Below, in pieces: positions 23,877-47,946 of a stretch of DNA of 51,458 nt. Source of the stretch: a virus. The translations under genes and the position numbers were made by a program. Within the stretch, counting starts at the first letter, position 1, and each line of letters starts with the position of its first letter. The DNA is taken from IMG/VR virus record IMGVR_UViG_3300028907_000006, positions 1 through 51,458 of that record; one strand, 5' to 3'. The notes under the pieces were generated by a model. The model was not told the origin of the DNA, searched no databases, and saw nothing but the letters and a program-made list of their open reading frames with translations.

Positions 23877-24296
23877 TTACACCAACTCCATAAAGTTGAT
23901 TGTTTTAATCCATTCCATAAAGCCGTTGGGATATGCGTTTCCCAATTTCGGTTTCTGATTGGACGCCAGCGGAGGATTATCATACAGCCCGAATTGCTGT
24001 TTGTAATCCATAAAATCGCTGGGGTCCAAAACTCCGTCTCCATTCAGATCGCATGCTCGGAACACCTCCGGGGTCAAGCGGTCTCTGCCCGCAGACACAT
24101 TTCCTTGGATATAATAGTAGTCATCTTGGGTAATTTTTCCATCACGATTAGCGTCCAAATTCGGCGTGTTAGCTACATGGGCGGCAACAATAACAGGCGT
24201 GAGCGGTACAACAGGAACAAAAAGCGGTGCGGCCTCAACGATAGGAGCTACCATAAGCAAAGAAGTTACAACAAAAGCTCCAAGCAATTTTTTCAT
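23877..24296 (-). CDS. Secreted protein with a dockerin-like double Ca-binding repeat
   Basis: Signal peptide MKKLLGAFVVTSLLMVAPIVEA. Two loops match the dockerin/EF-hand pattern D-x-N-x-DG: DANRDGKITQDDYYYI and DLNGDGVLDPSDFMDY. RBS AAGGAGGAG. Confidence 0.65.
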   Translation of the reverse strand: MKKLLGAFVVTSLLMVAPIVEAAPLFVPVVPLTPVIVAAHVANTPNLDANRDGKITQDDYYYIQGNVSAGRDRLTPEVFRACDLNGDGVLDPSDFMDYKQQFGLYDNPPLASNQKPKLGNAYPNGFMEWIKTINFMELV

Positions 24297-25821: not shown

Positions 25822-26095
25822 TATTTATCACCTTTTTAACATCGTTCAAACTTCTAGCCACTAAACATATTGCCCCGGCTTTCTCCCATTTAGCCAAATT
25901 CAGTTGTTGTTTCTTGGTAGGATTTTGCCCCGGCTGTTTGACTTCTATTCTTAGACAGCGACCATTCCAACAGCCATTTATGTCTGGCCTACCGAACTGG
26001 AAGGAATTACCCATCACCTTTTCTGCTACGCAACCAGTTACTCTGTTGTTAAGATATTCGAGAATGGATGCAGTGATGGAAGTCTCAAGTGGCAA
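25811..26095 (-). CDS. VRR-NUC domain nuclease
   Basis: GRPDINGCWNGRCLRIEVKQPG....Q..L.KWEKAGA fits the VRR-NUC PD-(D/E)XK pattern. Pairing with an SNF2 helicase is classic. Confidence 0.75.
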   Translation of the reverse strand: MPLETSITASILEYLNNRVTGCVAEKVMGNSFQFGRPDINGCWNGRCLRIEVKQPGQNPTKKQQLNLAKWEKAGAICLVARSLNDVKKVINNGT

Positions 26096-26418
26096 TTTTT
26101 TACATCTCCTTCCAAATTTTTATCGTCCAGATAATAGTGTGCGAACACTTTTCGAGTGTCGATATTAAACAACTTTTGAACTTCGGGCAAATTCTCGTTG
26201 ATGGCGTCAAACACCAATCCTCTCAAGAAACAAAACTCCACCGCTGAACTCAAATACTCTCCATGCCTACAAGTCCAAAGAATTAGCTTTGCCCCCCGGC
26301 TTTGGAGATTTAGCAATACGTCTATTATAGCCAAATTCGGTTGCCCTATCTCCGGGAATTGATCCTCCACCAATAGCCCGTCAAAATCAATCGCCAGTAT
26401 CAGTGGTAAATTCTTCAT
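26038..26418 (-). CDS. HAD-superfamily phosphatase-like protein (possible deoxynucleotidase)
   Basis: The N-terminal LAIDFDGLLV carries the DxD motif. Small phage HAD architecture. Confidence 0.55.
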   Translation of the reverse strand: MKNLPLILAIDFDGLLVEDQFPEIGQPNLAIIDVLLNLQSRGAKLILWTCRHGEYLSSAVEFCFLRGLVFDAINENLPEVQKLFNIDTRKVFAHYYLDDKNLEGDVKNCHLRLPSLHPFSNILTTE

Positions 26419-26743
26419 TTTCTGAACTCCTTATTTTCTCCACAAGCCAAACTCTCATCCAACCCTGGGCGTCAATCTTTTTCAGTTGTATAAATACATC
26501 AGGGTATATGGCTTGATACTTATCTGCCACGGCAAGTTTTAGCTCCTTGAAGGCTTCTTCGCTCTTGTCTAACTTTATACCAAAATCCATTCTCGCCCAG
26601 TATTCGAGAAGCCCATATAAACTTCCAAAGGCTTCTGCTTGTTTCTTCAACTGAGATTTGTATTCTTCAGGAAGATAGCAAAAATGAGCTTGATACAAGC
26701 CGTCAACAGTCTTAATGGGGTAGTGTATTTTTTTCAACATCAT
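26387..26743 (-). CDS. Hypothetical protein
   Basis: ATGATG at 26743/26740 lies after AAGGAG, inside the 3' end of the ThyA-like gene. The longer ORF-track start at 26803 is unlikely. Confidence 0.45.
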   Translation of the reverse strand: MMLKKIHYPIKTVDGLYQAHFCYLPEEYKSQLKKQAEAFGSLYGLLEYWARMDFGIKLDKSEEAFKELKLAVADKYQAIYPDVFIQLKKIDAQGWMRVWLVEKIRSSENEEFTTDTGD

Positions 26744-27401
26744 TGTCTCCTTCATACAGATGTAACGACCCAGCAATATGCGTGTACGAGCCAAGCTCCA
26801 CACCCAGTTCCATAGCTAATTTTGTTTGCATACAACTGAATGCGAACACGTCATAAGGAAATCCCAACCAAATATCGTTGCTTCTCATATATGTTGTTCC
26901 ATATAAAGCTCCTTCCCGGAGCAAATATTGAAGACAGATCGTACACGGCAAATCTTTTGTTGATATCGGGCTGGGTTCTTTTATGTGTATGATAGCTTGC
27001 CGAGAATTTGGATCCAAGGTGAGAAGTTGTTTAACGTATTCCCATTGGTCGAACATGTACTTGTTGTGTATTCTGTACCCATATGCAGAGTTCAACGTGA
27101 CTCCATCATCGGACATATCTTTCCAAAATTTGGCGTATGGCAATATGTCCGATAGTTTGTTGCTACCAGATAGATACCATAGCAACTCTCCAACAGCGTA
27201 TTTTATAGACATTTTTCTTACTGCCGATTGAAGGATATTGTTCCGGGGCTCAGTCAAGATCGTCACCGCATTTATGACTTCTCCTATGACTGGTTTGTAC
27301 CGGGATTTCATGACTTTTTCTTGAGACAACAGTATTTCGTACCATTCATCCCAGATTTCTGTTATGTTATTTCTCTCCACAACGATTCCAGAATATACCA
27401 T
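26712..27401 (-). CDS. ThyA-fold pyrimidine-nucleotide C5 hydroxymethylase/methylase, predicted dCMP-specific (T4 gp42-like)
   Basis: ELLWYLSGSN, DPNSRQAII, the catalytic Cys in DLPCTICLQY, and MRSNDIWLGFPYD. Compare E. coli ThyA QRSCDVFLGLPFN and T4 gp42 MRSNDVVFGFRND, both recalled from memory. Asp sits where ThyA has Asn177. Confidence 0.7.
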   Translation of the reverse strand: MVYSGIVVERNNITEIWDEWYEILLSQEKVMKSRYKPVIGEVINAVTILTEPRNNILQSAVRKMSIKYAVGELLWYLSGSNKLSDILPYAKFWKDMSDDGVTLNSAYGYRIHNKYMFDQWEYVKQLLTLDPNSRQAIIHIKEPSPISTKDLPCTICLQYLLREGALYGTTYMRSNDIWLGFPYDVFAFSCMQTKLAMELGVELGSYTHIAGSLHLYEGDNDVEKNTLPH

Positions 27402-27414
27402 TACAAATGTCCTC

Positions 27415-27831
27415 CTATTTGGATTTCCAATACACCGGCACTATCAAGGTTCGCTCGAATAGCTCTTTGAATCCTTTTCTGATTTTGTCTACATCCATAT
27501 TCTCCTTTCTTTTAGACAATCTATCTTTTACAACTTTAGTGTCTTCATCCACAAATATGACTTTAGCCCCAAGCTGTATCATGCGTCTTTCCAACCTTGT
27601 TAAATCGGACCAAGTCAATCTTCGGTCGGCGATTTCTTGATACACGAATTGTCCGTAGCAAAATCTGTCTGCAATTATATTATACTCCTTCGACTTGTCT
27701 ATTAGCTCGGAAAAAAATTCATGGTCGTAAGGACAACTGCAATGTACTATTCTAGCCTCAAACAAACCAGCCAAGTTCCGGGCTAATGTGGATTTTCCAG
27801 TCCCATCGCATCCTTCAAGAACCCATAGCAC
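27415..27831 (-). CDS. dNMP (thymidylate-type) kinase
   Basis: The P-loop LEGCDGTGKSTL resembles the thymidylate kinase E-G-x-D-G-x-GK-S/T motif. Adjacent to the ThyA-like gene. Confidence 0.65.
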   Translation of the reverse strand: MLWVLEGCDGTGKSTLARNLAGLFEARIVHCSCPYDHEFFSELIDKSKEYNIIADRFCYGQFVYQEIADRRLTWSDLTRLERRMIQLGAKVIFVDEDTKVVKDRLSKRKENMDVDKIRKGFKELFERTLIVPVYWKSK

Positions 27832-28393
27832 GATGCTTTTCCACCTCTCTCAAGAAATTTGACAACATTCGCTCTCTCTTGACTTTGGATGTATCAACCC
27901 TGATTGTATTGAATCCAGCCTCTCTAAAATATTCCACGCTATTGGTTACAGTTCTCCATTTATTACGGAGTATGGATTCATTTATCGGTTTTCCGCCATT
28001 TCTTTCCAATATTCTTTGGAGACAAACTTCTAGGGGTGGGGCTAATACCAGAATCAAAATGTTCCTGTCTTTATGGTATGGTTTTAGTGTGTCTATCGTA
28101 GGAGCTTTGACTGTTGAAAACATCACTCCTTCCATAAGTATATCGTGTTCTGGAAATTCTTGTACGGCGAACGCTAGAGCATCATTCATAATTTGGAAAT
28201 TCTTGTATCTATCCATACCTCCAGAAGTCTTATTGTATTTTCCAAGAGCTACCCAAGAAATATCCTTGAATACAGTTACTTCTTTGCCTTTATCTCCGAC
28301 AATCTCCCAATTGGAAATTTGTCTCATAGAATTAGGGAATGTGGATTTGCCCGAGCCATTACAGCCCCTAATATTCACCAACATTCTTTTCAA
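27815..28393 (-). CDS. P-loop kinase/NTPase of unknown substrate
   Basis: Walker A IRGCNGSGKSTF in a 192-aa small-kinase-like architecture. Confidence 0.5.
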   Translation of the reverse strand: MKRMLVNIRGCNGSGKSTFPNSMRQISNWEIVGDKGKEVTVFKDISWVALGKYNKTSGGMDRYKNFQIMNDALAFAVQEFPEHDILMEGVMFSTVKAPTIDTLKPYHKDRNILILVLAPPLEVCLQRILERNGGKPINESILRNKWRTVTNSVEYFREAGFNTIRVDTSKVKRERMLSNFLREVEKHRAMGS

Positions 28394-29411
28394 CGCCAGT
28401 CAATCCCTTCTGTATCCAAAGTTTTTTTCTTGCCGGCCTGATACCACGCCATCCTCCCAGTTCTCCTAACATGTGGGGCTCAAACAAGTTCCGTCGAATT
28501 TGAAATATGTTGTCCCATAAATCTCGCTGTTCTGGAAAATTCTCTTGGTAAAACAATAGATTTTCCAACTGGCGGTCGTGATGAAATCCTCCGTACCTTG
28601 CACCCTTGAAAAGATTGCGCCAACTACAAATTTTGTTAACTACAGACATCACTGGTATGGTCTCCAACGGAGCTTCTGCCGCACTTACAACAATTTTCAA
28701 ATACCCATCCAAACGGCGCATATCTCCAGCCGTCACCAATTTCTTTTTGTCGAACAAGTCTGCTTTCTCGTCATGGTAGAATATGTTGAATAGCCCGGAT
28801 GTAAGATTGCTACTGTCTTTCCAGCTGTACCCTCCTCCCATCAACTCCAAGTCTATCAACCCATTATTGTTAAAGGTTGTTATAGCTTCCATGAATAAGT
28901 CCACAGAGAATCTACCCATATACTTCCAAGAATTTAACTCATGCTCTATGGATTGAAAATTGTTCCGGGGGCTATCGCTATTAGCCAAACAATACAGCCA
29001 ATTAGTTGGGTCTTGAGCCGCAACTTCAAGAAACTGAACCATAAGCGGTACAAACCAATCCATATTCTTGACGTATTTTCTGGAGGAGTTGAATACAAGT
29101 TTGTCCTTGTACTTACTCCAGAATTTTTCCAAAGACGTAGTATTTAATTGCCTCAATTTATGGATAGGTATTTTATCCAATAAATATATGGCTGTTATCT
29201 CGCAATAAGTCATAGAGTGTAGCCAAGCCAAGTATATACAATTATCAGAGTCCAAATTGTTTATTACAGCGTATTCTCCAAGCGTCAACGGATCTATGGC
29301 CGGAGCATATTTTTGGTACTCTATGAACTTTTTTAATCTCCAAGGATGTCCTGTATCTCCTGGTATATTCACAATAACACCTCCATATGTAACTGGGGGC
29401 TGAGCCCCCAA
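28368..29411 (-). CDS. Hypothetical protein (334-347 aa), unrecognised family; candidate nucleic-acid-modifying enzyme by context only
   Basis: Long ORF. The likely start is the GTG at 29372, 5 nt after GGAGGTG, because a GGGGGCT/AGCCCCC hairpin (29392-29406) lies in the longer 5' extension. Confidence 0.5.
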   Translation of the reverse strand: MGAQPPVTYGGVIVNIPGDTGHPWRLKKFIEYQKYAPAIDPLTLGEYAVINNLDSDNCIYLAWLHSMTYCEITAIYLLDKIPIHKLRQLNTTSLEKFWSKYKDKLVFNSSRKYVKNMDWFVPLMVQFLEVAAQDPTNWLYCLANSDSPRNNFQSIEHELNSWKYMGRFSVDLFMEAITTFNNNGLIDLELMGGGYSWKDSSNLTSGLFNIFYHDEKADLFDKKKLVTAGDMRRLDGYLKIVVSAAEAPLETIPVMSVVNKICSWRNLFKGARYGGFHHDRQLENLLFYQENFPEQRDLWDNIFQIRRNLFEPHMLGELGGWRGIRPARKKLWIQKGLTGVEKNVGEY

Positions 29412-31589: not shown

Positions 31590-32015
31590 TTATTTGCCTT
31601 TTTTGGCAGGGGCTTTTTTCTTGGCCGGAACGATGGGCTCAATTTCTTCAAAATCATCGTCATCATCGTCGTCATCATCGTCAAAATCATCTTCTTCTTC
31701 TTCTTCGGTTTCTTCTTCTACAGGCTCAGGGGCTTTTTTGGCTTCTTTCTTGGGCTTGGCCTCTTTCTTGGGCTTGGATCCACGAACCACTACCGGGGGG
31801 GCATCAGCCAGAGACACGATTCTGTTGGCAAATCTGGGGTTTTTCGGGTCGATTTGAAGCCCAGTTTTCCTGTCAAATTTGAGCTCGGTGCCATCGGCTT
31901 TCTCTATGGCGATTTCTGTCTTGGTTACAGATTTCACCGGATATTCTTTGCCGATTCGCATACCTGTAAACCCAATGATAGCCACCATTTCACCTTTCTT
32001 CAAACTTGAGAACAT
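31590..32015 (-). CDS. Hypothetical protein: KNPRFAN-motif domain + Lys-rich linker + poly-Asp/Glu tract + Lys-rich tail
   Basis: The N-terminal domain is shared with the C-terminus of 34465..34956. The acidic run is EEETEEEEEDDFDDDDDDDDDDFEE, flanked by KPKKEAKPKKEAKK and KKKAPAKKGK. Confidence 0.6.
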   Translation of the reverse strand: MFSSLKKGEMVAIIGFTGMRIGKEYPVKSVTKTEIAIEKADGTELKFDRKTGLQIDPKNPRFANRIVSLADAPPVVVRGSKPKKEAKPKKEAKKAPEPVEEETEEEEEDDFDDDDDDDDDDFEEIEPIVPAKKKAPAKKGK

Positions 32016-39517: not shown

Positions 39518-39870
39518 CCATCCACCGCCCTGTCTATTGTTGTAGTATACATGGTAGAATCTGGTGTATTCAACCAGCGTTCTAGACGTAGCATTTTGTT
39601 ATCTATGGCCTGAAACAACTCGTAGGAGTTAAAGTTGAATATCATCATTACATGATTCATGACTATAAATACATCCGCTAATTCATCCAGAACTTTATCG
39701 TGTAAATTAGTTTGGGCGGCTTCGTGGTTTGGATATCTGGGGTATTTAGCCAACACTGCGGCCAGCTCGTTCAACTCCTCTATCGCTACCATAATCTGGT
39801 TATTGAATCCATACAGTTGTTGGGCTTTAGACAATACCTTCTTCAGATACTCCGGGCTGTACTCAATCAT
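39490..39870 (-). CDS. MazG-like all-alpha nucleoside-triphosphate pyrophosphohydrolase
   Basis: VAIEELNELAAVLAKY...LDELADVFIVMNHV carries the EExxE...D metal-binding helices of the MazG/dUTPase-like family. Confidence 0.65.
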   Translation of the reverse strand: MIEYSPEYLKKVLSKAQQLYGFNNQIMVAIEELNELAAVLAKYPRYPNHEAAQTNLHDKVLDELADVFIVMNHVMMIFNFNSYELFQAIDNKMLRLERWLNTPDSTMYTTTIDRAVDGCESKNLTS

Positions 39871-40342
39871 TTCTGTCCTCCTCCGAATAGCTGGAAAAAT
39901 GTACTACATTGACGTGGCCCGATTCTAATATGTTTTGAGTTTGTTGAGAGATCGGTTGCTGGCGCCCATAATACACGTTCGAGATTCCAGCTAACACGAT
40001 TGCCCGGGCACACGCTTCGCAAGGGTATCGAGTTACATACAGCCAACAACCGGTCAAATCTTGTTTGGCGTTGATTATGGCGTCTATCTCCGCATGAACG
40101 CTTCTACAATCGGAGGGCAGTCTGTGATTTTTGCTGTCGTCACCGTATTTGTCCTGGCGCATACAACTGTACGTGCATGACGGCACGGACACATTAGCCC
40201 CGAAGGATATGATTCTGGCGTCGTTTTTGTGCTGGGTTCGATTGTAACGAACTATGACCGCCCCTACAGACACCTTTCTACAAGTGGATTGCATGCCAGC
40301 ATACTGAGCGGCCAGCTCCATTAGTTTTTTAGTTGTAACCAT
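39863..40342 (-). CDS. dCMP deaminase
   Basis: Zinc motifs VHAEIDAI and PCEACARAI, with size typical of ComEB/T4 cd-type deaminases. Confidence 0.85.
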   Translation of the reverse strand: MVTTKKLMELAAQYAGMQSTCRKVSVGAVIVRYNRTQHKNDARIISFGANVSVPSCTYSCMRQDKYGDDSKNHRLPSDCRSVHAEIDAIINAKQDLTGCWLYVTRYPCEACARAIVLAGISNVYYGRQQPISQQTQNILESGHVNVVHFSSYSEEDRND

Positions 40343-40938
40343 ATTTCCTCCTTTATCTGGCGTGGGGTTATTTTCTGGTCTGTATAATATCCTCCGGTAG
40401 CAACCATGTAATCGCTAGGCGGCCATTGTATCGGGATTTTGAATACATCTTCTGTGAGAGAGCATACATTTACGCCTGTGGCTTCGAGCTGGTATGACGG
40501 GTTTTTACACTTTTTGGTTTTGGTGTATTGGCACCCAGCGCACCCACCTACTCTGAAATATTTTCCATTTGGATAAGATATTGAGAGAGATCGAGAGAGC
40601 TTATTGAGAGCATTTCGGGTCAAGTAGTGGAGCCCAGTACGCATAAAGTACAGTCTTGACTTGGATGCGTCAACTTTCGGGTACACAGGAAAATAGTCTT
40701 TGGAGTGAGCGATGACGCATATTATATAGAAGCAATTTTTTCTCGGCATATTGCCGAACAGAGGAGTTTTTGGGGGGCAACATGGACGGTTATTAAAGTT
40801 AGCGCACTGGTGGTCGTGGGTACACCACCAAGTTTGTTGCTCGGGCTCATAGTGTTGGAGGATTCTCTCGGGAGTTATGCGGGTACATAATACTTGGTAT
40901 TTGACTCCTGCTTTTGACTCCAGTTGTAGCGAGATCAT
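40321..40938 (-). CDS. Cys-rich putative metal-binding protein (DUF2284-like?)
   Basis: CANFNNRPCCPP and GGCAGCQ motifs. The family assignment is tentative and from memory. Confidence 0.4.
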   Translation of the reverse strand: MISLQLESKAGVKYQVLCTRITPERILQHYEPEQQTWWCTHDHQCANFNNRPCCPPKTPLFGNMPRKNCFYIICVIAHSKDYFPVYPKVDASKSRLYFMRTGLHYLTRNALNKLSRSLSISYPNGKYFRVGGCAGCQYTKTKKCKNPSYQLEATGVNVCSLTEDVFKIPIQWPPSDYMVATGGYYTDQKITPRQIKEEIWLQLKN

Positions 40939-43420: not shown

Positions 43421-44636
43421 TTCTGAAGCATTAGAGTTGATGTATAATTGGTCTTTTTGGGCCAGGCCAAATCAAATTCCTCCTTCGGCTGTAGATTGGA
43501 GTACATGGTTGATATGTACCGGGCGTGGCTGGGGGAAAACTCGGACTGGTGCTGAGTGGGTGAGATGGTTGGCTGAAAGCGGTAAATTTGGGAGGATTGC
43601 TCTGGTCGGGGCTACGGCGGCTGACGTCAGAGATATCATGATTGAAGGAGACAGTGGGATAAAGGCTGTTTGTCCTCCATGGAACTATCCTAATTATGAG
43701 CCCAGCAAGCGGAGATTGACTTGGCCTAATGGCGTCCGGGCTATCGCATATTCTGCTGAAGAACCAGCCCGGTTGAGGGGGCCACAGCATCATGCGGCTT
43801 GGGCCGACGAATTGGCTAGTTGGAAATATCCTGAGACATACGATATGCTGTTGTTAGGGTTGCGGCTAGGGGTTAAGCCAAGAGTGGTAGTCACAACCAC
43901 TCCTAAACCAATCAAAATCATACGAGAATTGGTGAAAGACGACACCACCACAGTAACTACTGGGAGCACTTTTGAAAATCGAGCTAATCTGGCTAAGACA
44001 TTTCTAAATGAAGTCACAAAGAAGTATGAAGGCACTAGGCTCGGGCGCCAAGAATTGTATGCGGAAATTCTTGAAGATGTCGAGGGGGCTTTGTGGAATC
44101 GGGACATGCTGGAAGCTGTAAGGGTGTCTACAGTTCCAGACATGAAAAGAATTGTAGTTGCCGTTGATCCTTCGGTTTCTAACAATGAAAATTCGGCTGA
44201 GACTGGAATTATAGTTGTTGGTCTGGGGGTAGATGGTAATGGGTATATCATCGATGATAAAAGCATGGTAGGTTCTCCCGACGAATGGAGCAGTGAAGTC
44301 ATAGCTCTCTATAACAAACACAAAGCAGATCGAATTGTTGTTGAAGTTAATCAAGGTGGAGATTTGGTTGAGACTGTTTTGAGAACCAAATTCACGAGGG
44401 CGCCAATTAAGAAGGTTCATGCTTCCCGGGGCAAACAAACAAGAGCTGAGCCGGTGGTAGCTTTGTACGAACAAAAGAGAGTTAAACATATTGGATTTTT
44501 TCCTTTTCTGGAAGATCAACTCTGCTCTTGGGTCCCAGGAATAAGTAAGAGTCCAGACAGAATGGATGCTCTTGTTTGGGGGATTACAAGTTTGATGCTT
44601 GAAAATGAGCCGACTTTGCGGGTCAGGCGTTTATAA
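43413..44636 (+). CDS. terL: Terminase large subunit
   Basis: ATG at 43413 (GGATGAGTGA overlap with the terS stop). WSFWARPNQIPP...LICTGRGWGKTRTGAEW (Walker A) and a C-terminal RNaseH-like nuclease region (VAVDPS...). Confidence 0.9.
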   Translation: MSDSEALELMYNWSFWARPNQIPPSAVDWSTWLICTGRGWGKTRTGAEWVRWLAESGKFGRIALVGATAADVRDIMIEGDSGIKAVCPPWNYPNYEPSKRRLTWPNGVRAIAYSAEEPARLRGPQHHAAWADELASWKYPETYDMLLLGLRLGVKPRVVVTTTPKPIKIIRELVKDDTTTVTTGSTFENRANLAKTFLNEVTKKYEGTRLGRQELYAEILEDVEGALWNRDMLEAVRVSTVPDMKRIVVAVDPSVSNNENSAETGIIVVGLGVDGNGYIIDDKSMVGSPDEWSSEVIALYNKHKADRIVVEVNQGGDLVETVLRTKFTRAPIKKVHASRGKQTRAEPVVALYEQKRVKHIGFFPFLEDQLCSWVPGISKSPDRMDALVWGITSLMLENEPTLRVRRL

Positions 44637-44649
44637 GGGGGCGTGGGGG

Positions 44650-45429
44650 TTGAGAAAAATAACTCAGTTGTGTCTGGGTACAGTTCAACTTGGTATGCCT
44701 TATGTTACCAAAAAACCAAAATTGAAGGATTCATTGGAGATTCTTGCGTTTGCTGAGAGCGCAGGAATTTCTTGTTTTGATACAGCTCAAGCCTATGGTA
44801 CAGCGGAGGAGATTTTGGGTACATTCGGTATGGGTGGAGACAGAAAGGTGATTACCAAGTTACACCCGGATGCTACAAGGGTCGATATTCAACTGTCGTT
44901 GGATAGATTGGGTGTAAGTAAGGTGTTTGCTTTTTTGTTGCATCGGCCCAGCCATATGTATTCGTATGGAATCGCTCACCGTATGAGAGAGTTGAGAGAG
45001 CAGGGTTATTGCGATCATGTGGGAGTATCTGTGTATGATAAAGGAGATGCTATTTGGGCGGCTAATGCTGATTGGGTTAGCGCCATAGAATTTCCTTATA
45101 ACTTGTTGTGTAAGGAGCTGGATGATTCTCCCTTCTTCGACTTGGCGGCAGGGAAGGTGCTGATAGCAAGACAGCCATTCGCTAAAGGTGAATTGTTCCG
45201 CTGTGGGATGGACTTCTTTGGGGTGAATCGGGCTCAGGCGTGTCTGCAATTTGTTATGAATCATATACCCAGGTTCGACTATGTGGCCTTCGGGGTAGAT
45301 GATTTAAGACAATTGCAGGAGAATGTTGAGGGCTCAAAGAAAAGCGTGCCGATGATGGAATCCAATCGAATTTGGAGAGAATCATTGAAGCTCAACGCTT
45401 ATCTGCCGCCCAGTTTGTGGGCCAATTAG
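44650..45429 (+). CDS. Aldo/keto reductase-family oxidoreductase
   Basis: LGTVQLGMPY...SAGISCFDTAQAYGTAEEILG is the AKR N-terminal signature. TTG at 44650 after AAGGGGGCGTGGGGG. Confidence 0.65.
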   Translation: MRKITQLCLGTVQLGMPYVTKKPKLKDSLEILAFAESAGISCFDTAQAYGTAEEILGTFGMGGDRKVITKLHPDATRVDIQLSLDRLGVSKVFAFLLHRPSHMYSYGIAHRMRELREQGYCDHVGVSVYDKGDAIWAANADWVSAIEFPYNLLCKELDDSPFFDLAAGKVLIARQPFAKGELFRCGMDFFGVNRAQACLQFVMNHIPRFDYVAFGVDDLRQLQENVEGSKKSVPMMESNRIWRESLKLNAYLPPSLWAN

Positions 45430-46128
45430 ATGGGTGTTGTAGCTATCGTTCAAGCTCGACTAGGGTCAACTAGGTTGCCTGGAAAAGTTCTAATGGACTT
45501 GGAGGGGCAACCCATGTTGTATAGACAACTTGAAAGAATCAAAAGAAGTAGGTTGTTGGATGATGTGGTGGTAGCAACCAGCTGTTTGGAGAAAGATAAT
45601 GCTTTGGAAGAGTTCTGCTGGCGTGTAGGGGTTGCATGCTACCGGGGCTCAGAGAAGGATGTTCTGAGTAGGTATTTGGCTACCGCTTATCATATTGGGC
45701 TTTCTGATGGTGATAGTATAGTTCGATTGACTGCAGATTGTCCGTTGACTGATTGGCGCATGATAGATCGGGTTATACTGAACCACAAGAAGTATGGAGC
45801 AGACTATACGTCAAATGTAATTCCTCCTACTTATCCTGATGGATTGGATGTAGAAGTTTTTACACTTGATACATTGGAGAAAGCCTGGATTCATAACAAT
45901 AAAGTTCATTGCGAAGATTGTTCGGAACATGTTACGACCCACATGAAAGATTTGAAATACTTCAAGACCATAAGTGTAGTGGGTGAAGAAGATTTGTCTA
46001 GGCTGAAGTGGTCGGTAGATACTATGGACGATTTGATGTTTGTGAGGGGGGTGTATAAAAAGTTGTTTAAGTCCAATCCCGACTTCGGGGCAGAGGAAAT
46101 TTTGGAGCTGTATGGCAATCGAATTTGA
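45430..46128 (+). CDS. SpsF/COG1861-type cytidylyltransferase (acylneuraminate cytidylyltransferase-like; candidate CMP-sugar synthetase)
   Basis: VAIVQARLGSTRLPGKVL N-terminal motif. Confidence 0.7.
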   Translation: MGVVAIVQARLGSTRLPGKVLMDLEGQPMLYRQLERIKRSRLLDDVVVATSCLEKDNALEEFCWRVGVACYRGSEKDVLSRYLATAYHIGLSDGDSIVRLTADCPLTDWRMIDRVILNHKKYGADYTSNVIPPTYPDGLDVEVFTLDTLEKAWIHNNKVHCEDCSEHVTTHMKDLKYFKTISVVGEEDLSRLKWSVDTMDDLMFVRGVYKKLFKSNPDFGAEEILELYGNRI

Positions 46129-46168
46129 CTGGATACAATAAGAGAGTGTAAATGAAGGAGGGGCAATT

Positions 46169-47416
46169 GTGAATTTTTCCGAGTCAGACGTGGCGTTGGA
46201 AAGAGCTTTACAAGTTATTCCAAATGGGACATGTACGTTCTCAAAATCTCGAACCATGCTCCCGGTCGGGCATAGCCCATTTTATGCAGACAGAGGATTT
46301 GGCGGTCATCTGTGGGACATTGATGATAATGAATTTTTGGACTTGACTATGGGGCTAACTGCGGTCACTCTCGGGTATAGACACAAAAGAGTGGACCAAG
46401 CAGTTATGGCTCAAGTAAAAAGGGGAGGAGCTATTTTCTCTCTGCCTCAAAATTTGGAAATTACCGTGGCTGAACGAATAATTGATATGGTTCCTTGTGC
46501 CGAGATGGTGAGATTTGGCAAGAATGGGTCTGATGTAACTGCTGGAGCAGTAAGATTGGCTCGATATGTTACTGGGCGAGATATGGTGTTGTGTTGCGGC
46601 TACCATGGTTGGCAGGATTGGTACATCGGCACTACCGGGAGGAATGGGGGCGTGCCGGCGGTTGTATCGGAGTTGACTAAACAATTTCGGTACAATGATA
46701 TTCTTCACCTCACTGTTCTGTTGGAGAAGTATGAAGGCCAAGTTGCTTGCGTGATTATGGAGCCAATGAATAGGGTTTTTCCCGTTCCTGGCTTTTTGCA
46801 ATCGGTACAAAATTTGTGTAAGAAATATGGCGTGATATTTATTTTGGATGAAGTTATTACCGGATTCCGTTTTGCAAATGGCGGGGCTCAGGAGTATTTT
46901 GGAATTGTTCCTGATATGTGTACTCTTGGAAAAGGGATTGCCAATGGGTATCCTCTATCAGCTGTTTGCGGCAAACGAGAATTGATGGAGGAGTTCTCCA
47001 AGATACACTTCTCATTCACCTACGCCAGTGACTCGATTGCTTTAACAGCGGCTAATACTACGTTGTTGGAGTACAAGTATGGAGATGTCTGTGAGAAGTT
47101 AGCTGAGCGTGGAGAAAAGTTGAAGACGGAGTTAAACAAGAGTATTCGGGAGATTGGGATCACGCATTTAATTTCTTCGGTCAGCGGCCATCCGGCTTGG
47201 TCTCATTTCAACTTCAAAGATGATGTGGTTAAAAGCGAGTTTTTGAAGCAAGTACACTCTCTTGGAATATTGACTGCAGGTACAAATAATTTGTGCTATA
47301 TGCATACAGACGCAGATATTGATTATGCTCTATGTATGTACGAGATAGCATTTGAGCGTTTGGCCTCTCTTGATTGGACTAAAGCTGATTGCTTGGTTGA
47401 GAGGGGGGTCAGATAA
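46169..47416 (+). CDS. Class-III PLP-dependent aminotransferase (glutamate-1-semialdehyde aminomutase-like)
   Basis: GTG after GAAGGAGGGG. DEVITGFRF and the PLP-lysine region CTLGKGIANGYP. Confidence 0.75.
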   Translation: MNFSESDVALERALQVIPNGTCTFSKSRTMLPVGHSPFYADRGFGGHLWDIDDNEFLDLTMGLTAVTLGYRHKRVDQAVMAQVKRGGAIFSLPQNLEITVAERIIDMVPCAEMVRFGKNGSDVTAGAVRLARYVTGRDMVLCCGYHGWQDWYIGTTGRNGGVPAVVSELTKQFRYNDILHLTVLLEKYEGQVACVIMEPMNRVFPVPGFLQSVQNLCKKYGVIFILDEVITGFRFANGGAQEYFGIVPDMCTLGKGIANGYPLSAVCGKRELMEEFSKIHFSFTYASDSIALTAANTTLLEYKYGDVCEKLAERGEKLKTELNKSIREIGITHLISSVSGHPAWSHFNFKDDVVKSEFLKQVHSLGILTAGTNNLCYMHTDADIDYALCMYEIAFERLASLDWTKADCLVERGVR

Positions 47417-47946
47417 TGAAAGAAGTATCCTTCAAGGCGTTGAAAAAAGAGGACATGGCTCAGATCGTGGAATGGAGAAATTCTACTGTTGGTGTATTGC
47501 GTACTCCATTCTTGATGACTAAAGATATGCAGGAGGAGTTCTATGAAAGAACGGTCTGTGATCGTGGGGCTGATTCCAGATATTTCGCTATTCATTTTGA
47601 TGGTTCTCTGGTTGGTATGGCAGGCGTAAACAACATATCTTGGGAGAACCGCAATGGAGAAATCTCTTTGTTAGTCAATCCGAAGTTGCGGGGCAAAGGG
47701 ATCGGCTCTATGGCTGTTTTGGAAATTTTGCGTATCGGATTCAACTGCATGAACTTGGAGAATATCTATGGCGAGTGCTATTTCAGCAATCGGGCTGGAA
47801 TAAAGTTCTGGGAATCGCAAATTGAAAGGTTTCATGGATACACGGCTATCCTTCCCAACAGAAAGTTCTTTGGAGGAGAATACCACGACTCATTGTACTT
47901 CTCCTTTAATCGTAAAACTGTTTGGGAGGGGGGCGAACGTGTATGA
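47416..47946 (+). CDS. GNAT N-acetyltransferase (PseH-like)
   Basis: L.KEDMAQIVEWRNS......P and the GNAT core RGKGIGS. TAATG overlap with the upstream stop. Confidence 0.65.
   Translation: MKEVSFKALKKEDMAQIVEWRNSTVGVLRTPFLMTKDMQEEFYERTVCDRGADSRYFAIHFDGSLVGMAGVNNISWENRNGEISLLVNPKLRGKGIGSMAVLEILRIGFNCMNLENIYGECYFSNRAGIKFWESQIERFHGYTAILPNRKFFGGEYHDSLYFSFNRKTVWEGGERV

What the first reader, a model, noticed from the sequence alone, without database searches (positions are those of the whole stretch)
27415..29411. dNMP kinase plus a second P-loop kinase and a 334-347-aa orphan next to the hydroxymethylase: candidate hypermodification module
Three overlapping or abutting genes lie immediately upstream of the ThyA-like gene in transcription order. 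The first is the 334-347-aa ORF of no family I recognise. The second is a 192-aa P-loop protein (GCNGSGKST). The third is a thymidylate-kinase-like dNMP kinase (EGCDGTGKST). The dNMP kinase is expected for phosphorylating a non-canonical dNMP, as T4 gp1 does. The extra kinase and large orphan recall the 5-hydroxymethylpyrimidine DNA kinase + transferase pairs that build thymidine hypermodifications post-replicatively. If the base here is 5-hmC rather than 5-hmU, this would be an undescribed variant. This is a context argument only.
Basis: inference. Interest (0 to 1): 0.7.

Follow-up and report, generated by a model that had tools for sequence, protein, structure and literature searches.

The report
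Phage DNA-base kinase and transferase module
An uncultured gut phage carries the kinase and transferase pair that other phages use to attach amino acids or amines to thymine in DNA, but here the pair sits next to a hydroxymethylase built for cytosine, a combination I did not find described.

Summary
The three genes are real, co-oriented and overlapping as described.

- **Kinase.** The 192-aa P-loop protein is a clear member of the 5-hmdU DNA kinase family (PF18748, 79 bits). It keeps every residue invariant in the tested SP10 and M6 kinases.
- **"Orphan".** This protein (334 aa from GTG 29372) is a divergent amino acid:DNA transferase (AADT, formerly aGPT-Pplase2). Support comes from a profile chain to characterised enzymes (E 1.3e-56, then 8e-17), fold matches to PaMx11 gp46 (TM 0.59) and to viral AADT models, a conserved catalytic Cys262, and fusions to the kinase in relatives. 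It lacks the Glu-Thr metal dyad and the DxDPxY motif.
- **dNMP kinase.** The 138-aa protein is Tmk-like.
- **Unexpected part.** The adjacent ThyA-like enzyme carries the cytosine signature (PCT, MRS, Asp at E. coli N177), as do T4 gp42, MilA and phage VPE25. It does not carry the dUMP-hydroxymethylase signature (PCN, NRS, Asn). All 15 syntenic metagenomic loci with a detected ThyA-like gene share this.

So the hydroxymethyl group enters as 5-hm-dCMP. Whether the kinase and transferase then act on 5hmU made by the phage's conserved deaminase (my pick, about 0.42) or directly on 5hmC (about 0.32) is unresolved. Either way this is a new variant of a known kind.

The parts
28368..29372 (-). Divergent amino acid:DNA transferase (AADT / aGPT-Pplase2 superfamily), here called the 'A1 clade'. 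334 aa from GTG 29372; the ORF is open to TTG 29411 (347 aa). Predicted catalytic Cys262 (347-aa numbering) lies in the motif K-I-C-S-W-R-N-L-F-K.
   Evidence: PF18724 24.5 bits against a cutoff of 26.2; 22 of 38 family members hit PF18724. hhalign A1 vs bridging clade A6: 100%, E 1.3e-56. A6 vs characterised AADTs (A3): 98.8%, E 8e-17. Direct A1 vs A3: E 4.8e-5, with Cys262 aligned to Cys247. AF2 model pLDDT 92.4. Foldseek: PDB 8z2m TM 0.51/0.59, the only real superposition; BFVD AADT models E down to 5e-10. Fusions to PF18748 in relatives.
27815..28393 (-). 5-HMUDK-family DNA nucleobase kinase, kinase domain only (192 aa). There is no HMUDK_hel helical domain.
   Evidence: PF18748 3.4e-22, 79.4 bits. 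tblastn finds 409 phage records, including SP10 gp186 (36% identity) and ViI-like phages (Det7, Dickeya LIMEstone1) among those listed, plus 56 Pseudomonas records. All invariant positions (N7, R9, G10, N12, G13, G15, K16, D61, E88, G89, R127, R131, K135) are shared with the SP10 and M6 kinases.
27415..27831 (-). Short Tmk-like dNMP kinase (138 aa).
   Evidence: PF02223 3e-10. TIGR00041 1.2e-12, below its cutoff. It is homologous to the kinase directly upstream of the cytosine-type hydroxymethylase in Enterococcus phage 9183 (9.5e-9), Lactobacillus phage ATCCB and VPE25. A ribosome-binding site precedes the GTG start.
26712..27401 (-). Cytosine-type pyrimidine hydroxymethylase (dCMP hydroxymethylase-like ThyA homologue, 229 aa).
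   Evidence: PF00303 3.5e-26. The best solved relative is MilA, a CMP 5-hydroxymethylase, at 1.7e-33, against about 1e-17 for thymidylate synthases. The signature PCT / MRS / Asp at E. coli N177 is shared with T4 gp42, MilA and VPE25-type enzymes. dUMP hydroxymethylases have PCN / NRS / Asn instead. The Xp12 dCMP methylase differs (PCP / LRS) and keeps the thymidylate-synthase C-terminus that this protein lacks. The score is far below all NCBIfam thymidylate-synthase cutoffs.
26387..26737 (-). Conserved ORF of unknown function (117 aa as publicly called; ORF open to 26803). It always follows the hydroxymethylase in related loci.
   Evidence: phmmer hits in 14 syntenic loci (E 1e-7 to 4e-19) and in 18 of 80 hydroxymethylase loci. 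No Pfam, PHROG or NCBIfam match.
26038..26418 (-). BT0820-family HAD-type phosphatase (126 aa), a candidate nucleotidase of the pre-replicative cassette.
   Evidence: NF046079 6.7e-28, below its cutoff. DxDG motif visible. Conserved after the hydroxymethylase in syntenic loci and present in LysYB1.
39863..40342 (-). dCMP/dCTP-type cytidylate deaminase (159 aa) in the same long minus-strand gene array. It is the enzyme needed if 5-hm-dC nucleotides are converted to 5-hm-dU nucleotides.
   Evidence: PF00383 1.1e-17. Homologues are present on 12 of 12 sufficiently long contigs that carry the module (contig names cross-matched).

Best explanation
The region is a two-stage pyrimidine hypermodification module.

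**Stage 1, before replication.** These steps are inferred from family signatures.
- The ThyA-like enzyme hydroxymethylates dCMP, not dUMP, to give 5-hm-dCMP.
- The adjacent Tmk-like dNMP kinase phosphorylates the modified nucleotide. Host NDP kinase and the phage PolA then put it into DNA.
- Part of the 5-hm-dC nucleotide pool is deaminated by the phage's conserved dCMP-family deaminase (39863-40342) to 5-hm-dU nucleotides. New DNA therefore carries 5hmU at thymine positions, probably alongside 5hmC.

**Stage 2, after replication.** These steps are inferred by homology to tested enzymes.
- The 334-aa AADT-superfamily protein uses Cys262 to attack C6 and expel the phosphate, forming an exocyclic C5 methylene. 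It then captures a free amine- or hydroxyl-bearing metabolite (an amino acid or polyamine).
- No PLP, radical-SAM, FAD or other tailoring enzyme was found among the genes scanned around the module or in the replication-gene array, so the appended group is probably left unprocessed.
- The result is a bulky, charged thymidine derivative that blocks host nucleases.

**How firm each part is.** Gene identities, conserved motifs, synteny and gene fusions are shown. The cytosine entry point is a strong inference. The deamination step, the identity of the target base and the donor molecule are inferred.
For: **Kinase membership.**

**Transferase superfamily membership, with the cysteine kept.**

**Functional coupling of the pair.** The two proteins are fused into one polypeptide in relatives (P0033, P0035-37, L010, L015, L017, L049, L067).

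**Cytosine-type hydroxymethylase.** Three co-varying signature positions are shared with T4 gp42, MilA and VPE25. VPE25 DNA was shown experimentally to be modified at cytosines, with digestion patterns consistent with glucosyl-hmC (PMC4999554). All 15 syntenic loci with a ThyA-like gene carry Asp at the N177 position.

**Why 5hmU is the preferred target.**
1. Every characterised kinase/AADT pair acts on 5hmdU (PMC8989533, PMC11472151, PMC13458397).
2. A1-clade proteins with identical active-site motifs occur next to a dUMP-type (Asn) hydroxymethylase in Lysinibacillus phage LysYB1. They also occur inside ParB + Tet_JBP + P-loop kinase clusters of the kind shown to be T-dioxygenase pathways (PMC13229309). 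No motif separates these from the window's clade, and the tree does not resolve them.
3. The deaminase is on 12 of 12 long module-bearing contigs.
4. Phage deaminases of this Pfam family that accompany Asp-type ThyA homologues can convert 5hmdCTP to 5hmdUTP, and they yield 5hmdU in DNA in vivo (bioRxiv 10.1101/2024.12.05.627091).
Against: - No phage is known to make 5hmU through a cytosine-type hydroxymethylase. It is a roundabout route when Asn-type enzymes exist.
- The deaminase is also present in close relatives that have the hydroxymethylase cassette but no kinase or transferase (L161-L164). It may simply supply dUMP, as T4 cd does.
- In the preprint's screen, all seven deaminases that produced 5hmdU were linked to methylase-type ThyA homologues, not hydroxymethylase-type ones.
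- The dNMP kinase plus hydroxymethylase pair is the same cassette found in glucosyl-hmC-type phages, which points to 5hmC in the DNA.
- The A1 clade lacks the Glu-Thr metal ligands that are essential in tested AADTs (PMC13458397), so its chemistry may differ.
- Nothing here was tested biochemically.
Confidence: 0.42

Rival explanations
1. The enzymes are the same, but the post-replicative pair acts directly on 5-hydroxymethylcytosine. The pathway would be dCMP to 5-hm-dCMP to 5-hm-dCTP to 5hmC in DNA, then a 5-phosphomethylcytosine intermediate, then a 5-(aminoacyl- or aminoalkyl-)methylcytosine. That would be a class of cytosine hypermodification not yet described. The deaminase would only feed dUMP to host thymidylate synthase, as in T4.
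For: - It is the most parsimonious reading of a tightly linked, co-oriented array of transferase, DNA kinase, dNMP kinase and Asp-type hydroxymethylase, conserved across loci whose transferases are only 40-57% identical.
- The dNMP kinase + hydroxymethylase cassette is shared with phages of the VPE25 group; VPE25 DNA is experimentally modified at cytosines (PMC4999554).
- Close relatives carry the cassette alone, or with a dUTPase-family gene as T4-type hmC phages do.
- Two different AADT subclades (A1 and A6-like) have each been joined to this cassette.
- Cys attack at C6 works on cytosine as well as uracil, as in DNA C5-methyltransferases and dCMP hydroxymethylase (established chemistry).
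- Loss of the Glu-Thr metal dyad shows the active site has been remodelled.
Against: - The A1 active-site motifs are identical in members tied to thymine-derived 5hmU (LysYB1 and the Tet_JBP/ParB clusters). No cytosine-specific signature appears.
- D-associated members are not resolved as a separate clade (36% bootstrap).
- The kinase keeps all residues invariant in 5hmU kinases.
- Every tested family member uses 5hmdU.
Confidence: 0.32
2. This is a classical thymidine hypermodification pathway. Despite its Asp, the ThyA-like enzyme hydroxymethylates dUMP (supplied by the dCMP deaminase), exactly as in SP10, M6 or ViI.
For: - The close homologue of this enzyme in Agathobaculum phages AB434P2/P3 is annotated as 'deoxyuridylate hydroxymethyltransferase'.
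- The gene set (dCMP deaminase, hydroxymethylase, dNMP kinase, HAD phosphatase, DNA kinase, AADT) mirrors the hmU-phage suite described in PMC8989533.
Against: - That annotation is automatic.
- Three signature positions match T4 gp42, MilA and VPE25 rather than SPO1 gp29, SP10, M6 or ViI-like enzymes.
- The N177/D179 switch is an experimentally established determinant of uracil versus cytosine specificity (Liu & Santi 1992, as used in bioRxiv 10.1101/2024.12.05.627091).
- The best solved relative is a CMP hydroxymethylase, by 16 orders of magnitude in E-value.
Confidence: 0.07
3. The A1-clade protein is not a group transferase. After the kinase step it would resolve the 5-phosphomethyl intermediate in another way. 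One option is reduction back to a methyl group (5hmU to T, or 5hmC to 5mC), the unexplained 'thymine-forming' branch seen in SP10 and PhiW-14. Another is that it acts as a non-catalytic partner of the kinase.
For: - The A1 clade lacks the Glu-Thr dyad and the DxDPxY motif of tested transferases.
- In several Tet_JBP clusters an A1 gene sits directly beside a classical AADT paralogue, which suggests non-redundant roles.
- M6 gp51 with borohydride yields thymidine (PMC8989533), so reduction of the methylene intermediate is chemically accessible.
Against: - The all-helical protein has no recognisable hydride-cofactor domain.
- In the window and most relatives A1 is the only AADT homologue, so a pathway ending in a plain methyl group would make the kinase step pointless as a defence.
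- The invariant Cys and the many invariant polar residues argue for catalysis.
Confidence: 0.1
4. The two P-loop proteins are ordinary nucleotide-pool kinases, and the large protein is an HhH-type DNA glycosylase or repair protein unrelated to base modification.
For: Weak P-loop matches to dNK and AAA families. PHROG labels such as 'terminase small subunit' and 'thymidylate kinase'. The AADT fold is distantly glycosylase-like (PMC11472151).
Against: - The specific PF18748 score is far above the generic matches.
- The PHROG labels are known mis-annotations of tested 5-HMUDKs; SP10 gp186 is itself labelled 'terminase small subunit'.
- Among solved structures only the gp46 entries (8z2m, 8z2n) superpose well (TM about 0.5-0.6); the next best is 7ugk at 0.35 and the rest are about 0.1-0.2.
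- The protein is fused to the DNA kinase in relatives.
Confidence: 0.04

Closest known systems
Pseudomonas phages M6 (gp51 AADT, gp54 5-HMUDK) and PaMx11 (gp46/PUGT, gp49): reconstituted thymidine hypermodification pathways (PMC8989533, PMC11472151)
   Same: A DNA nucleobase kinase and a Cys-dependent helical transferase are encoded next to a ThyA-family hydroxymethylase. The kinase domain is homologous. The transferase shares the fold and the catalytic cysteine.
   Different: - Their hydroxymethylase is the Asn (dUMP) type; the window's is the Asp (cytosine) type.
- Their kinases carry a C-terminal HMUDK_hel domain; the window's does not.
- Their transferases have the Glu-Thr metal dyad and DxDPxY motif, which the window protein lacks.
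- They have tailoring enzymes (PLP, radical SAM, FAD, acetyltransferase); none was found among the genes scanned around the window's module.
Bacillus phage SP10 (gp185/gp186, alpha-glutamylthymidine) and Lysinibacillus phage LysYB1 (M3_0048 to M3_0054)
   Same: LysYB1 is the only cultured phage with an A1-clade protein (44% identity), and the gene lies directly upstream of a 5-HMUDK. The window kinase is 36-37% identical to the SP10 and LysYB1 kinases.
   Different: - These are 144-kb Herelleviridae with an Asn-type dUMP hydroxymethylase.
- The LysYB1 protein has an extra ~250-aa C-terminal domain shared with SP10 gp185.
- HMUDK_hel is present as a domain or a separate gene.
Delftia phage PhiW-14 gp109 and Acinetobacter phage SH-Ab 15599 DADT (putrescine and 1,3-diaminopropane transferases; PMC13458397)
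   Same: The pathway is a single transferase step with no downstream tailoring, which is the likely situation here.
   Different: These are classical Pplase2 enzymes that depend on a metal bound by the Glu-Thr dyad. Their substrate is 5-PmdU derived from dUMP hydroxymethylation.
T4 gp42 / gp1 / cd, and the Enterococcus phage VPE25/9183 cassette (pre-replicative 5hmC pathway followed by glucosylation)
   Same: An Asp-type hydroxymethylase with the same three signature positions, an adjacent dNMP kinase (Tmk-like as in 9183, VPE25 and ATCCB; gp1-like in window relatives), and a dCMP deaminase.
   Different: Those phages decorate 5hmC with glycosyltransferases. The window has a DNA base kinase and an AADT homologue instead, and no dCTPase or dUTPase gene was found among the ORFs scanned.
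Xanthomonas phage Xp12-type pathway with modified-cytosine-selective deaminases (mSCD-B5; bioRxiv 10.1101/2024.12.05.627091)
   Same: An Asp-type ThyA homologue combined with a dCMP_cyt_deam_1 deaminase. It is a precedent for a thymine-position nucleotide being made by deaminating a 5-modified dC nucleotide (5hmdCTP to 5hmdUTP, shown in vitro).
   Different: The Xp12 enzyme is a methylase (PCP / LRS, with a thymidylate-synthase-like C-terminus and a DHFR neighbour). It has no post-replicative kinase or transferase. The window's deaminase lies 12.5 kb from the hydroxymethylase.
ParB-dependent phage T-dioxygenase clusters (5mYOX + ParB + P-loop kinase + AADT; PMC13229309)
   Same: A1-clade genes with identical motifs sit in ParB-like, A1, P-loop kinase, Tet_JBP arrays (L024, L028, L045, L047).
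   Different: There the hydroxymethyl group is made on DNA by oxidising thymine. The window has no Tet_JBP gene and makes the group on a nucleotide.

Membership tests
5-hmdU DNA kinase (5-HMUDK, Pfam PF18748) | Sequence match to the family model above the curated threshold | tested here: met
   79.4 bits against a cutoff of 27, E 3.4e-22. The precomputed annotation of the public gene call agrees.
5-hmdU DNA kinase (5-HMUDK, Pfam PF18748) | P-loop and other residues invariant in experimentally active kinases (SP10 gp186 kinase domain, M6 gp54) | tested here: met
   N7, R9, G10, N12, G13, G15, K16, G51, Y53, G59, D61, E88, G89, S93, T94, P120, R127, R131, K135 and K145 are invariant across 7 sequences, including SP10 and M6.
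5-hmdU DNA kinase (5-HMUDK, Pfam PF18748) | C-terminal helical domain (HMUDK_hel, PF18723) fused to the kinase or encoded nearby | tested here: not met
   The window protein has only 192 aa, and phmmer with the SP10 helical domain finds nothing in the window. Relatives encode the domain as a separate gene near the deaminase (L011, L015, L017, L067). A C-terminal deletion of SP10 gp186 is still active (PMC8989533), so the domain is not essential.
5-hmdU DNA kinase (5-HMUDK, Pfam PF18748) | Phosphorylates the 5-hydroxymethyl group of 5hmU in polymeric DNA | not testable with these tools
   Needs an in vitro assay on 5hmU DNA (SP8) and 5hmC DNA (T4gt).
Amino acid:DNA transferase (AADT / aGPT-Pplase2, Pfam PF18724) | Sequence match to the family model above the curated threshold | tested here: not met
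   24.5 bits against a cutoff of 26.2. 22 of 38 clade members match at E<=0.01, best 7.5e-7. M6 gp51 scores 159.6 bits.
Amino acid:DNA transferase (AADT / aGPT-Pplase2, Pfam PF18724) | Homology to characterised members by profile comparison | tested here: met
   A1 vs A6: 100%, E 1.3e-56, 309 columns. A6 vs A3 (PaMx11 gp46, M6 gp51, PhiW-14 gp109, SH-Ab 15599 DADT and others): 98.8%, E 8e-17. 19 of 30 A6 members match PF18724 at E<=0.001 (best 4.2e-23; P0235 scores 66.8 bits against the 26.2-bit cutoff). Direct A1 vs A3: 68%, E 4.8e-5.
Amino acid:DNA transferase (AADT / aGPT-Pplase2, Pfam PF18724) | Two-helix-bundle fold of PaMx11 gp46/PUGT | tested here: met
   Model pLDDT 92.4. 8z2m TMq 0.51 / TMt 0.59; all other PDB hits are TM 0.35 or below. 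BFVD has 9 hits at E<=1e-3, and the named ones are all AADT-domain proteins, TM 0.54-0.83.
Amino acid:DNA transferase (AADT / aGPT-Pplase2, Pfam PF18724) | Catalytic cysteine (PaMx11 Cys247) | tested here: met
   Cys262 is invariant in 38 of 38 members and aligns with Cys247 in the hhalign comparisons.
Amino acid:DNA transferase (AADT / aGPT-Pplase2, Pfam PF18724) | Metal-coordinating Glu-Thr dyad four and three residues before the Cys (E243/T244 in PaMx11, E222/T223 in SH-Ab 15599), essential in tested enzymes | tested here: not met
   The aligned positions 258 and 259 are Val/Thr/Ile and Gly/Asn/Pro in the A1 clade. The dyad is kept in the bridging clade A6. Its essential role is shown in PMC13458397.
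Amino acid:DNA transferase (AADT / aGPT-Pplase2, Pfam PF18724) | N-terminal D-x-D-P-x-Y motif, invariant in classical members | tested here: not met
   Invariant in A3 (D22, D24, P25, Y27). The aligned A1 stretch reads V-P-x-I-x-P.
Amino acid:DNA transferase (AADT / aGPT-Pplase2, Pfam PF18724) | Transfers a free amino acid or amine to 5-phosphomethyl-dU in DNA | not testable with these tools
   Needs reconstitution with the kinase, substrate DNA and donor panels.
dCMP (cytosine-type) hydroxymethylase, T4 gp42 / MilA type | Asp at the position of E. coli ThyA Asn177 (T4 gp42 Asp179) | tested here: met
   The window reads GFPYDVFAF. The same holds in all 15 syntenic loci with a ThyA-like gene, and in T4 gp42, MilA, VPE25, 9183 and ATCCB.
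dCMP (cytosine-type) hydroxymethylase, T4 gp42 / MilA type | Thymidylate-synthase fold with the catalytic Cys, but without the thymidylate-synthase C-terminal segment that closes the site for hydride transfer | tested here: met
   PF00303 3.5e-26. PC(153)T aligns with E. coli C146. The protein ends 13 residues after H-L-Y, whereas E. coli ThyA and the Xp12 methylase continue for 50 aa or more.
dCMP (cytosine-type) hydroxymethylase, T4 gp42 / MilA type | Product is 5-hm-dCMP | not testable with these tools
   Needs an enzyme assay, or co-expression with a dNMP kinase followed by LC-MS.
dUMP hydroxymethylase, SPO1 gp29 type (the usual entry enzyme of thymidine hypermodification) | Asn at the N177 position, with the co-varying PCN and NRS motifs | tested here: not met
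   SPO1 gp29, SP10, LysYB1, M6 and a ViI-like enzyme have PCN (ICN in ViI-like) / NRS / Asn. The window has PCT / MRS / Asp.
Thymidylate kinase (dTMP kinase) | Match to the equivalog model above threshold, and full length with a LID region | tested here: inconclusive
   TIGR00041 47.9 bits against a cutoff of 83.25. PF02223 40.5 bits against a cutoff of 27. The protein is 138 aa, versus about 200 aa for typical Tmk (my own knowledge). The P-loop and a D-R-F motif are present.

The most novel reading that the evidence does not exclude
The kinase and transferase pair acts on 5-hydroxymethylcytosine. A widespread clade of gut Clostridia phages would then replace cytosine with 5hmC, phosphorylate it in the polymer, and attach an amino acid or polyamine to the methylene carbon. 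That would be the first non-sugar, kinase-dependent hypermodification of cytosine. It would also supply the first 5hmC-specific DNA kinase and transferase as tools.
Probability: 0.3. Interest if true: 0.85.

Novelty: new variant of a known kind. Interest (0 to 1): 0.66.

Why it matters
Kinase plus AADT hypermodification has so far been treated as thymidine-only chemistry, fed either by a dUMP hydroxymethylase or by a T-dioxygenase. Here the same machinery is wired to a cytosine-type hydroxymethylase, recurrently, in a clade of uncultured phages apparently associated with gut Clostridia. There are at least 15 IMG/VR loci, and two different transferase subclades are involved.

Either outcome is new.
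- If the pair acts on 5hmC, a new chemical class of modified cytosine exists. The enzymes could become 5hmC-selective labelling tools for epigenomics.
- If 5hmU is made by deaminating 5-hm-dC nucleotides, one hydroxymethylase feeds two modified bases. That extends the Xp12 logic (a thymine-position nucleotide made from a modified dC nucleotide without a thymidylate synthase) to hydroxymethylated bases.

The A1 clade also shows that the AADT fold can work, or do something else, without the metal dyad thought to be essential. All of this can be tested directly with three or four recombinant proteins and existing substrates (T4gt and SP8 DNA).

Tried and rejected
**Searches that found nothing**
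- Single-sequence and A1-profile searches of PDB sequences found no significant match and did not return gp46; the only entries, at E 0.4-1, were unrelated proteins. Only fold comparison and a bridging clade made the link.
- No solved structure matches the kinase, so base-contacting residues could not be inspected.
- NCBIfam added no names for the kinase or transferase.

**Comparisons that were uninformative**
- hhalign of A1 against single sequences (M6 gp51, ViI gp160) gave nothing useful. Whether A1 equals Iyer's 'clade 1' could not be settled that way. Pfam gave no clade-1 or clade-3 hit for the window protein.
- BLASTP of the window protein against SP10 gp185 found nothing. SP10 gp185 shares only the C-terminal domain of the LysYB1 fusion.

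**Attempts to separate 5hmC-users from 5hmU-users within the A1 clade**
- Motif comparison found no difference.
- The NJ bootstrap was unresolved: all-D monophyly 36%, LysYB1 grouped with D members 62%. A first, slower bootstrap script timed out.

**Tests of the deaminase route**
- Co-occurrence came out 12 of 12, but relatives without the kinase or transferase have the deaminase too. The test therefore does not discriminate.

**Readings considered and rejected**
- dCMP methylase (Xp12-like) for the ThyA homologue: rejected on signature, the missing C-terminus and 25% identity.
- A link between the nonulosonic-acid sugar island (44.6-49.9 kb) and the module: no co-occurrence in related contigs, so I treat it as separate.

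Full report
**1. Observation**

The window is a ~51-kb phage genome.
- It has terminase, portal, structural and lysis genes on the plus strand.
- A long minus-strand replication and nucleotide-metabolism array runs from about 41.2 kb down to 23.9 kb.
- The same contig is public as ENA ERZ27257507 k141_285244, and part of it as Logan SRR8554103.

The three ORFs of the finding are on the minus strand exactly as stated:

| Coordinates | Length | Relation to the next gene |
|---|---|---|
| 28368-29411 | 347 aa from TTG | overlaps the next by 26 nt |
| 27815-28393 | 192 aa | overlaps the next by 17 nt |
| 27415-27831 | 138 aa | 13-nt gap before the ThyA-like gene |
| 26712-27401 | ThyA-like, 229 aa | |

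The first gene most likely starts at GTG 29372 (334 aa).
- A GGAGG ribosome-binding site lies about 7 nt upstream.
- The public gene call uses this start.
- Family alignments begin there.

Ribosome-binding sites also precede the dNMP kinase and ThyA-like starts. For the DNA-kinase TTG start, the nearest purine-rich stretch is about 12 nt upstream, and an in-frame ATG 9 nt downstream is an alternative.

**2. The 192-aa protein is a 5-hmdU DNA kinase family member**

- It scores 79.4 bits (E 3.4e-22) against PF18748, whose cutoff is 27. The next best matches are generic P-loop noise.
- tblastn finds 409 phage records. Those listed include SP10 gp186 (36% identity) and ViI-like phages (Det7, Dickeya LIMEstone1), the lineages in which the kinase activity was demonstrated; 56 records are from Pseudomonas phages (PMC8989533).
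- An alignment with the SP10 and M6 kinase domains shows 21 invariant positions, including the NxRGxNGxGK(S/T) P-loop.
- The PHROG label 'terminase small subunit' is a propagated mis-annotation. It is also attached to SP10 gp186.
- The window protein lacks the HMUDK_hel domain (PF18723) that is fused in SP10 and M6. Relatives encode that domain separately near the deaminase.

**3. The 'orphan' is a divergent amino acid:DNA transferase**

Pfam gives only a sub-threshold PF18724 (ADDT) hit: 24.5 bits against a cutoff of 26.2. PF18724 is the family of M6 gp51, which scores 159.6 bits.

The protein has 312+ homologues. I aligned 38 of them as A1. The A1 profile reaches 375 clusters at 50% identity among 1.84 billion proteins.

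Homology to tested enzymes was established in three ways.

*(a) A profile chain.*
- The weaker hits form a bridging clade, A6. Its consensus shows both classical motifs (DxDP, ETxLC) and A1 motifs (FGRF, RYxGYYxDR, LGE).
- A1 vs A6: hhalign 100%, E 1.3e-56.
- A6 vs A3: 98.8%, E 8e-17. A3 is ten classical AADTs, including PaMx11 gp46, M6 gp51, PhiW-14 gp109 and SH-Ab 15599 DADT.
- 19 of 30 A6 members match PF18724 at E<=0.001, best 4.2e-23; P0235 scores 66.8 bits, above the 26.2-bit cutoff.
- Direct A1 vs A3 gives E 4.8e-5. The landmarks align in order: Y69~Y51, R111~R93, P135~P116, G166~G144 and C262~C247.

*(b) Fold.*
- The AF2 model has pLDDT 92.4 and is all-helical.
- Against the PDB, the only real superposition is PaMx11 gp46/PUGT (8z2m, TM 0.51/0.59). 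Every other hit is at 0.35 or below.
- Against viral models there are nine hits at E<=1e-3. [quoted passage not shown]

*(c) Context.*
- The protein is fused N-terminally to a PF18748 kinase in several relatives (P0033, P0035-37, P0085, P0110, L010, L015, L017, L049, L067).

Cys262 is invariant and corresponds to the catalytic Cys247 of gp46 (PMC11472151).

The clade lacks two features of tested enzymes.
- It lacks the Glu-Thr dyad that binds the essential metal. Positions 258/259 are V/T/I and G/N/P (PMC13458397).
- It lacks the N-terminal DxDPxY motif.

It has its own invariant set instead: NLTSG..N..Y.D, and GG(F/Y)HHDRQL plus a C-terminal extension. So the protein works like an AADT and belongs to the superfamily, but it is a distinct clade and not a typical PF18724 member.

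**4. The 138-aa protein is a short Tmk-like dNMP kinase**

Its nearest phage relatives are the kinases directly upstream of the hydroxymethylase in Enterococcus phages 9183 and VPE25 and in Lactobacillus phage ATCCB. In relatives of the window this position is taken by a T4 gp1-like kinase (GxxGxGKDTF).

**5. The neighbouring ThyA homologue is cytosine-type**

This is the result that changes the picture.
- Its best solved relative is MilA, a CMP 5-hydroxymethylase (E 1.7e-33). Thymidylate synthases score about 1e-17.
- At the position of E. coli Asn177, the established uracil/cytosine switch, it has Asp.
- Two further positions co-vary with it, as the table shows.

| Group | Members compared | After the catalytic Cys | Before R166 | At N177 |
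|---|---|---|---|---|
| Cytosine hydroxymethylases | T4 gp42, MilA, VPE25, 9183, ATCCB, the window | C-T | M-R-S (MilA M-R-A) | Asp |
| dUMP hydroxymethylases | SPO1 gp29, SP10, LysYB1, M6, ViI-like | C-N | N-R-S | Asn |
| dCMP methylase | Xp12 | C-P | L-R-S | Asp |

- VPE25 DNA was shown experimentally to be modified at cytosines, with digestion patterns consistent with glucosyl-hmC (PMC4999554).
- The Xp12 methylase keeps a thymidylate-synthase-like C-terminus and has a DHFR neighbour. The window protein stops 13 residues after H-L-Y and is only 25% identical to it. I therefore read it as a hydroxymethylase.
- All 15 syntenic IMG/VR loci with a detected ThyA-like gene have Asp.
- The same criterion is used by others to predict dCMP substrates (bioRxiv 10.1101/2024.12.05.627091).

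**6. Comparative anatomy**

Related loci show a conserved core of dNMP kinase, Asp-type hydroxymethylase, an unknown ~117-aa ORF and a BT0820-type HAD phosphatase.
- The core occurs alone in close relatives (L158, L160-L165, L167 and others).
- Elsewhere it is preceded by the transferase + DNA kinase pair.
- Accessory genes inserted between them vary: dUTPase-family, DUF1599/MazG-like, GT-A-like glycosyltransferase and SAM methyltransferase.
- Some relatives use an A6-type transferase that keeps ETxLC (L157, L175, L179).

The post-replicative pair therefore looks like an add-on to a pre-replicative cytosine-type cassette, acquired with two different transferase subclades.

A dCMP-family deaminase (window 39863-40342) is on 12 of 12 long contigs with the module. 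It is also present in relatives without the pair.

Outside this lineage, A1-clade genes occur in three other settings.
- Lysinibacillus phage LysYB1, next to a 5-HMUDK, HMUDK_hel and an Asn-type hydroxymethylase.
- ParB-like, A1, P-loop kinase, Tet_JBP arrays, sometimes with a classical AADT paralogue alongside. These match the T-dioxygenase clusters of PMC13229309.
- Next to radical-SAM genes.

Active-site motifs are identical across all these contexts. An NJ bootstrap does not separate the Asp-associated members from LysYB1.

**7. Mechanism and its uncertainty**

*Shown:* gene identities, motif conservation, fusions and synteny.

*Strongly inferred:* the hydroxymethyl group enters as 5-hm-dCMP. 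The DNA kinase phosphorylates a hydroxymethylpyrimidine in DNA. The Cys262 protein then displaces the phosphate through a C6 adduct and an exocyclic methylene, and adds a nucleophile.

*Unresolved:* which base is the target.

For 5hmU made by deamination (about 0.42):
- All tested family members use 5hmdU.
- A1 motifs do not differ from those of thymine-linked members.
- The deaminase is strictly co-conserved with the module.
- There is direct precedent for 5hmdCTP to 5hmdUTP by phage deaminases that accompany Asp-type ThyA homologues.

For 5hmC directly (about 0.32):
- Parsimony of the linked array.
- The cassette is shared with phages of the VPE25 group, whose DNA is modified at cytosines.
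- The deaminase is not specific to module-bearing phages.
- In the preprint, the 5hmdU-producing deaminases were all linked to methylase-type enzymes.

The remaining probability goes to a non-transfer role for A1 (0.10), dUMP use despite the Asp (0.07) and unrelated functions (0.04).

The donor is unknown. No PLP, radical-SAM, FAD or other tailoring enzyme was found among the ORFs scanned around the module and in the replication-gene array, so an unprocessed amino acid or polyamine adduct is most likely. The only such enzymes seen elsewhere in the window belong to the sugar island described in section 10.

**8. Literature check**

Full-text searches and reading of PMC8989533, PMC5889632, PMC11472151, PMC13458397 and PMC13229309 found only thymidine-directed kinase/AADT pathways. 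PMC8989533 refers to the neighbouring enzymes generically as 'dUMP hydroxymethylase'. I found no description of the pair combined with an Asp-type hydroxymethylase.

**9. Host and distribution**

- A scan of 185,579 species' genomes found only three loci. All are MAG contigs: Ca. Avilachnospira, Acutalibacteraceae and Bacteroidales.
- The nearest cultured-phage match for the hydroxymethylase is in Agathobaculum phages.
- The clade appears to consist of uncultured phages, perhaps of gut Clostridia, that were not found integrated in any isolate genome in this scan.

**10. Verdict**

It is a new variant of a known kind. Interest 0.66.

In passing, the phage also carries a six-gene nonulosonic-acid pathway between the terminase and portal genes. 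It is not shared with related contigs.

Noticed in passing
window 44599-49894 (+): A six-gene nonulosonic-acid (pseudaminic/legionaminic-like) sugar pathway sits between the terminase large subunit and the portal gene. It comprises an aldo/keto reductase, a CTP_transf_3 CMP-sugar synthetase, a class-III aminotransferase, a GNAT acetyltransferase, NeuB+SAF, and a PseB/FlaA1-like dehydratase. No glycosyltransferase was seen. Its target (virion, host surface or DNA) is unknown. Only four distant relatives turned up in IMG/VR, none on module-bearing contigs.
   Followed up: partly
window 40321-40938 (-): A DUF2284 'predicted metal-binding protein' (205 aa) lies directly upstream of the dCMP deaminase. 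Relatives (L011, L015, L017, L067) have a separate HMUDK_hel gene upstream of the deaminase in that region. No homologue was found in the related loci.
   Followed up: partly
window 26387-26803 (-): A conserved ORF (117-138 aa) overlaps the end of the hydroxymethylase gene and always follows it in related phages, whether or not they have the kinase/transferase pair. It has no family match in Pfam, PHROGs or NCBIfam.
   Followed up: partly
window 29395-29409 (-): A perfect 6-bp stem with a 3-nt loop (GGGGGC-TCA-GCCCCC) lies in the short gap between the DUF669 gene's stop and the ribosome-binding site of the transferase gene. It is preceded, not followed, by a T-run, so it does not look like a terminator.
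   Followed up: no
window 31590-32015 (-): A 141-aa protein with a lysine-rich KKEAKPKKEAKK stretch followed by a run of about 25 Asp/Glu residues (EEEDDFDDDDDDDDDDFEE). It could be a DNA mimic or a histone-like early protein.
   Followed up: no
window 23877-24296 (-): A 139-aa protein with an N-terminal hydrophobic, signal-like stretch. Pfam gives EF-hand matches above or near threshold and a Dockerin_1 match of 27.5 bits (cutoff 22.9); the precomputed annotation marks these as faint. It hints at a cellulosome-bearing Clostridia host.
   Followed up: no
L002 7016-8935 (LysYB1 M3_0048) and L004 5171-7861 (SP10 gp185): The LysYB1 protein is an A1-clade transferase fused to a ~250-aa C-terminal domain. 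That domain is 44% identical (E 1e-63) to the C-terminus of SP10 gp185, the uncharacterised 896-aa protein just upstream of the SP10 kinase. The N-terminal 640 aa of SP10 gp185 has no detectable family. This may bear on the still unidentified glutamate transferase of SP10.
   Followed up: partly
L009 4651-5469, L049 2015-2845, L067 11610-12455, L013 11630-12055, L016 11633-11920: Relatives insert different accessory genes between the DNA kinase and the hydroxymethylase: a GT-A-like glycosyltransferase (DxD motif), a SAM methyltransferase, a dUTPase-family protein, and a DUF1599/MazG-like 95-aa protein. This suggests a combinatorial set of end products in this phage clade.
   Followed up: partly
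L024 9399-12274, L034 8546-12535, L045 132-3019: A1-clade genes are embedded in ParB-like, A1, P-loop kinase, Tet_JBP arrays. In L034 the order is Tet_JBP, A1, classical AADT, Ploopntkinase3. Here an A1 member and a classical AADT are adjacent paralogues, which implies non-redundant roles.
   Followed up: partly
L001 (Agathobaculum phage AB434P2, OP172633.1) 7994-8656: The gene annotated 'deoxyuridylate hydroxymethyltransferase' has the cytosine signature (NCT / MRS / Asp). It is probably mis-named. No kinase or AADT homologue lies nearby.
   Followed up: partly
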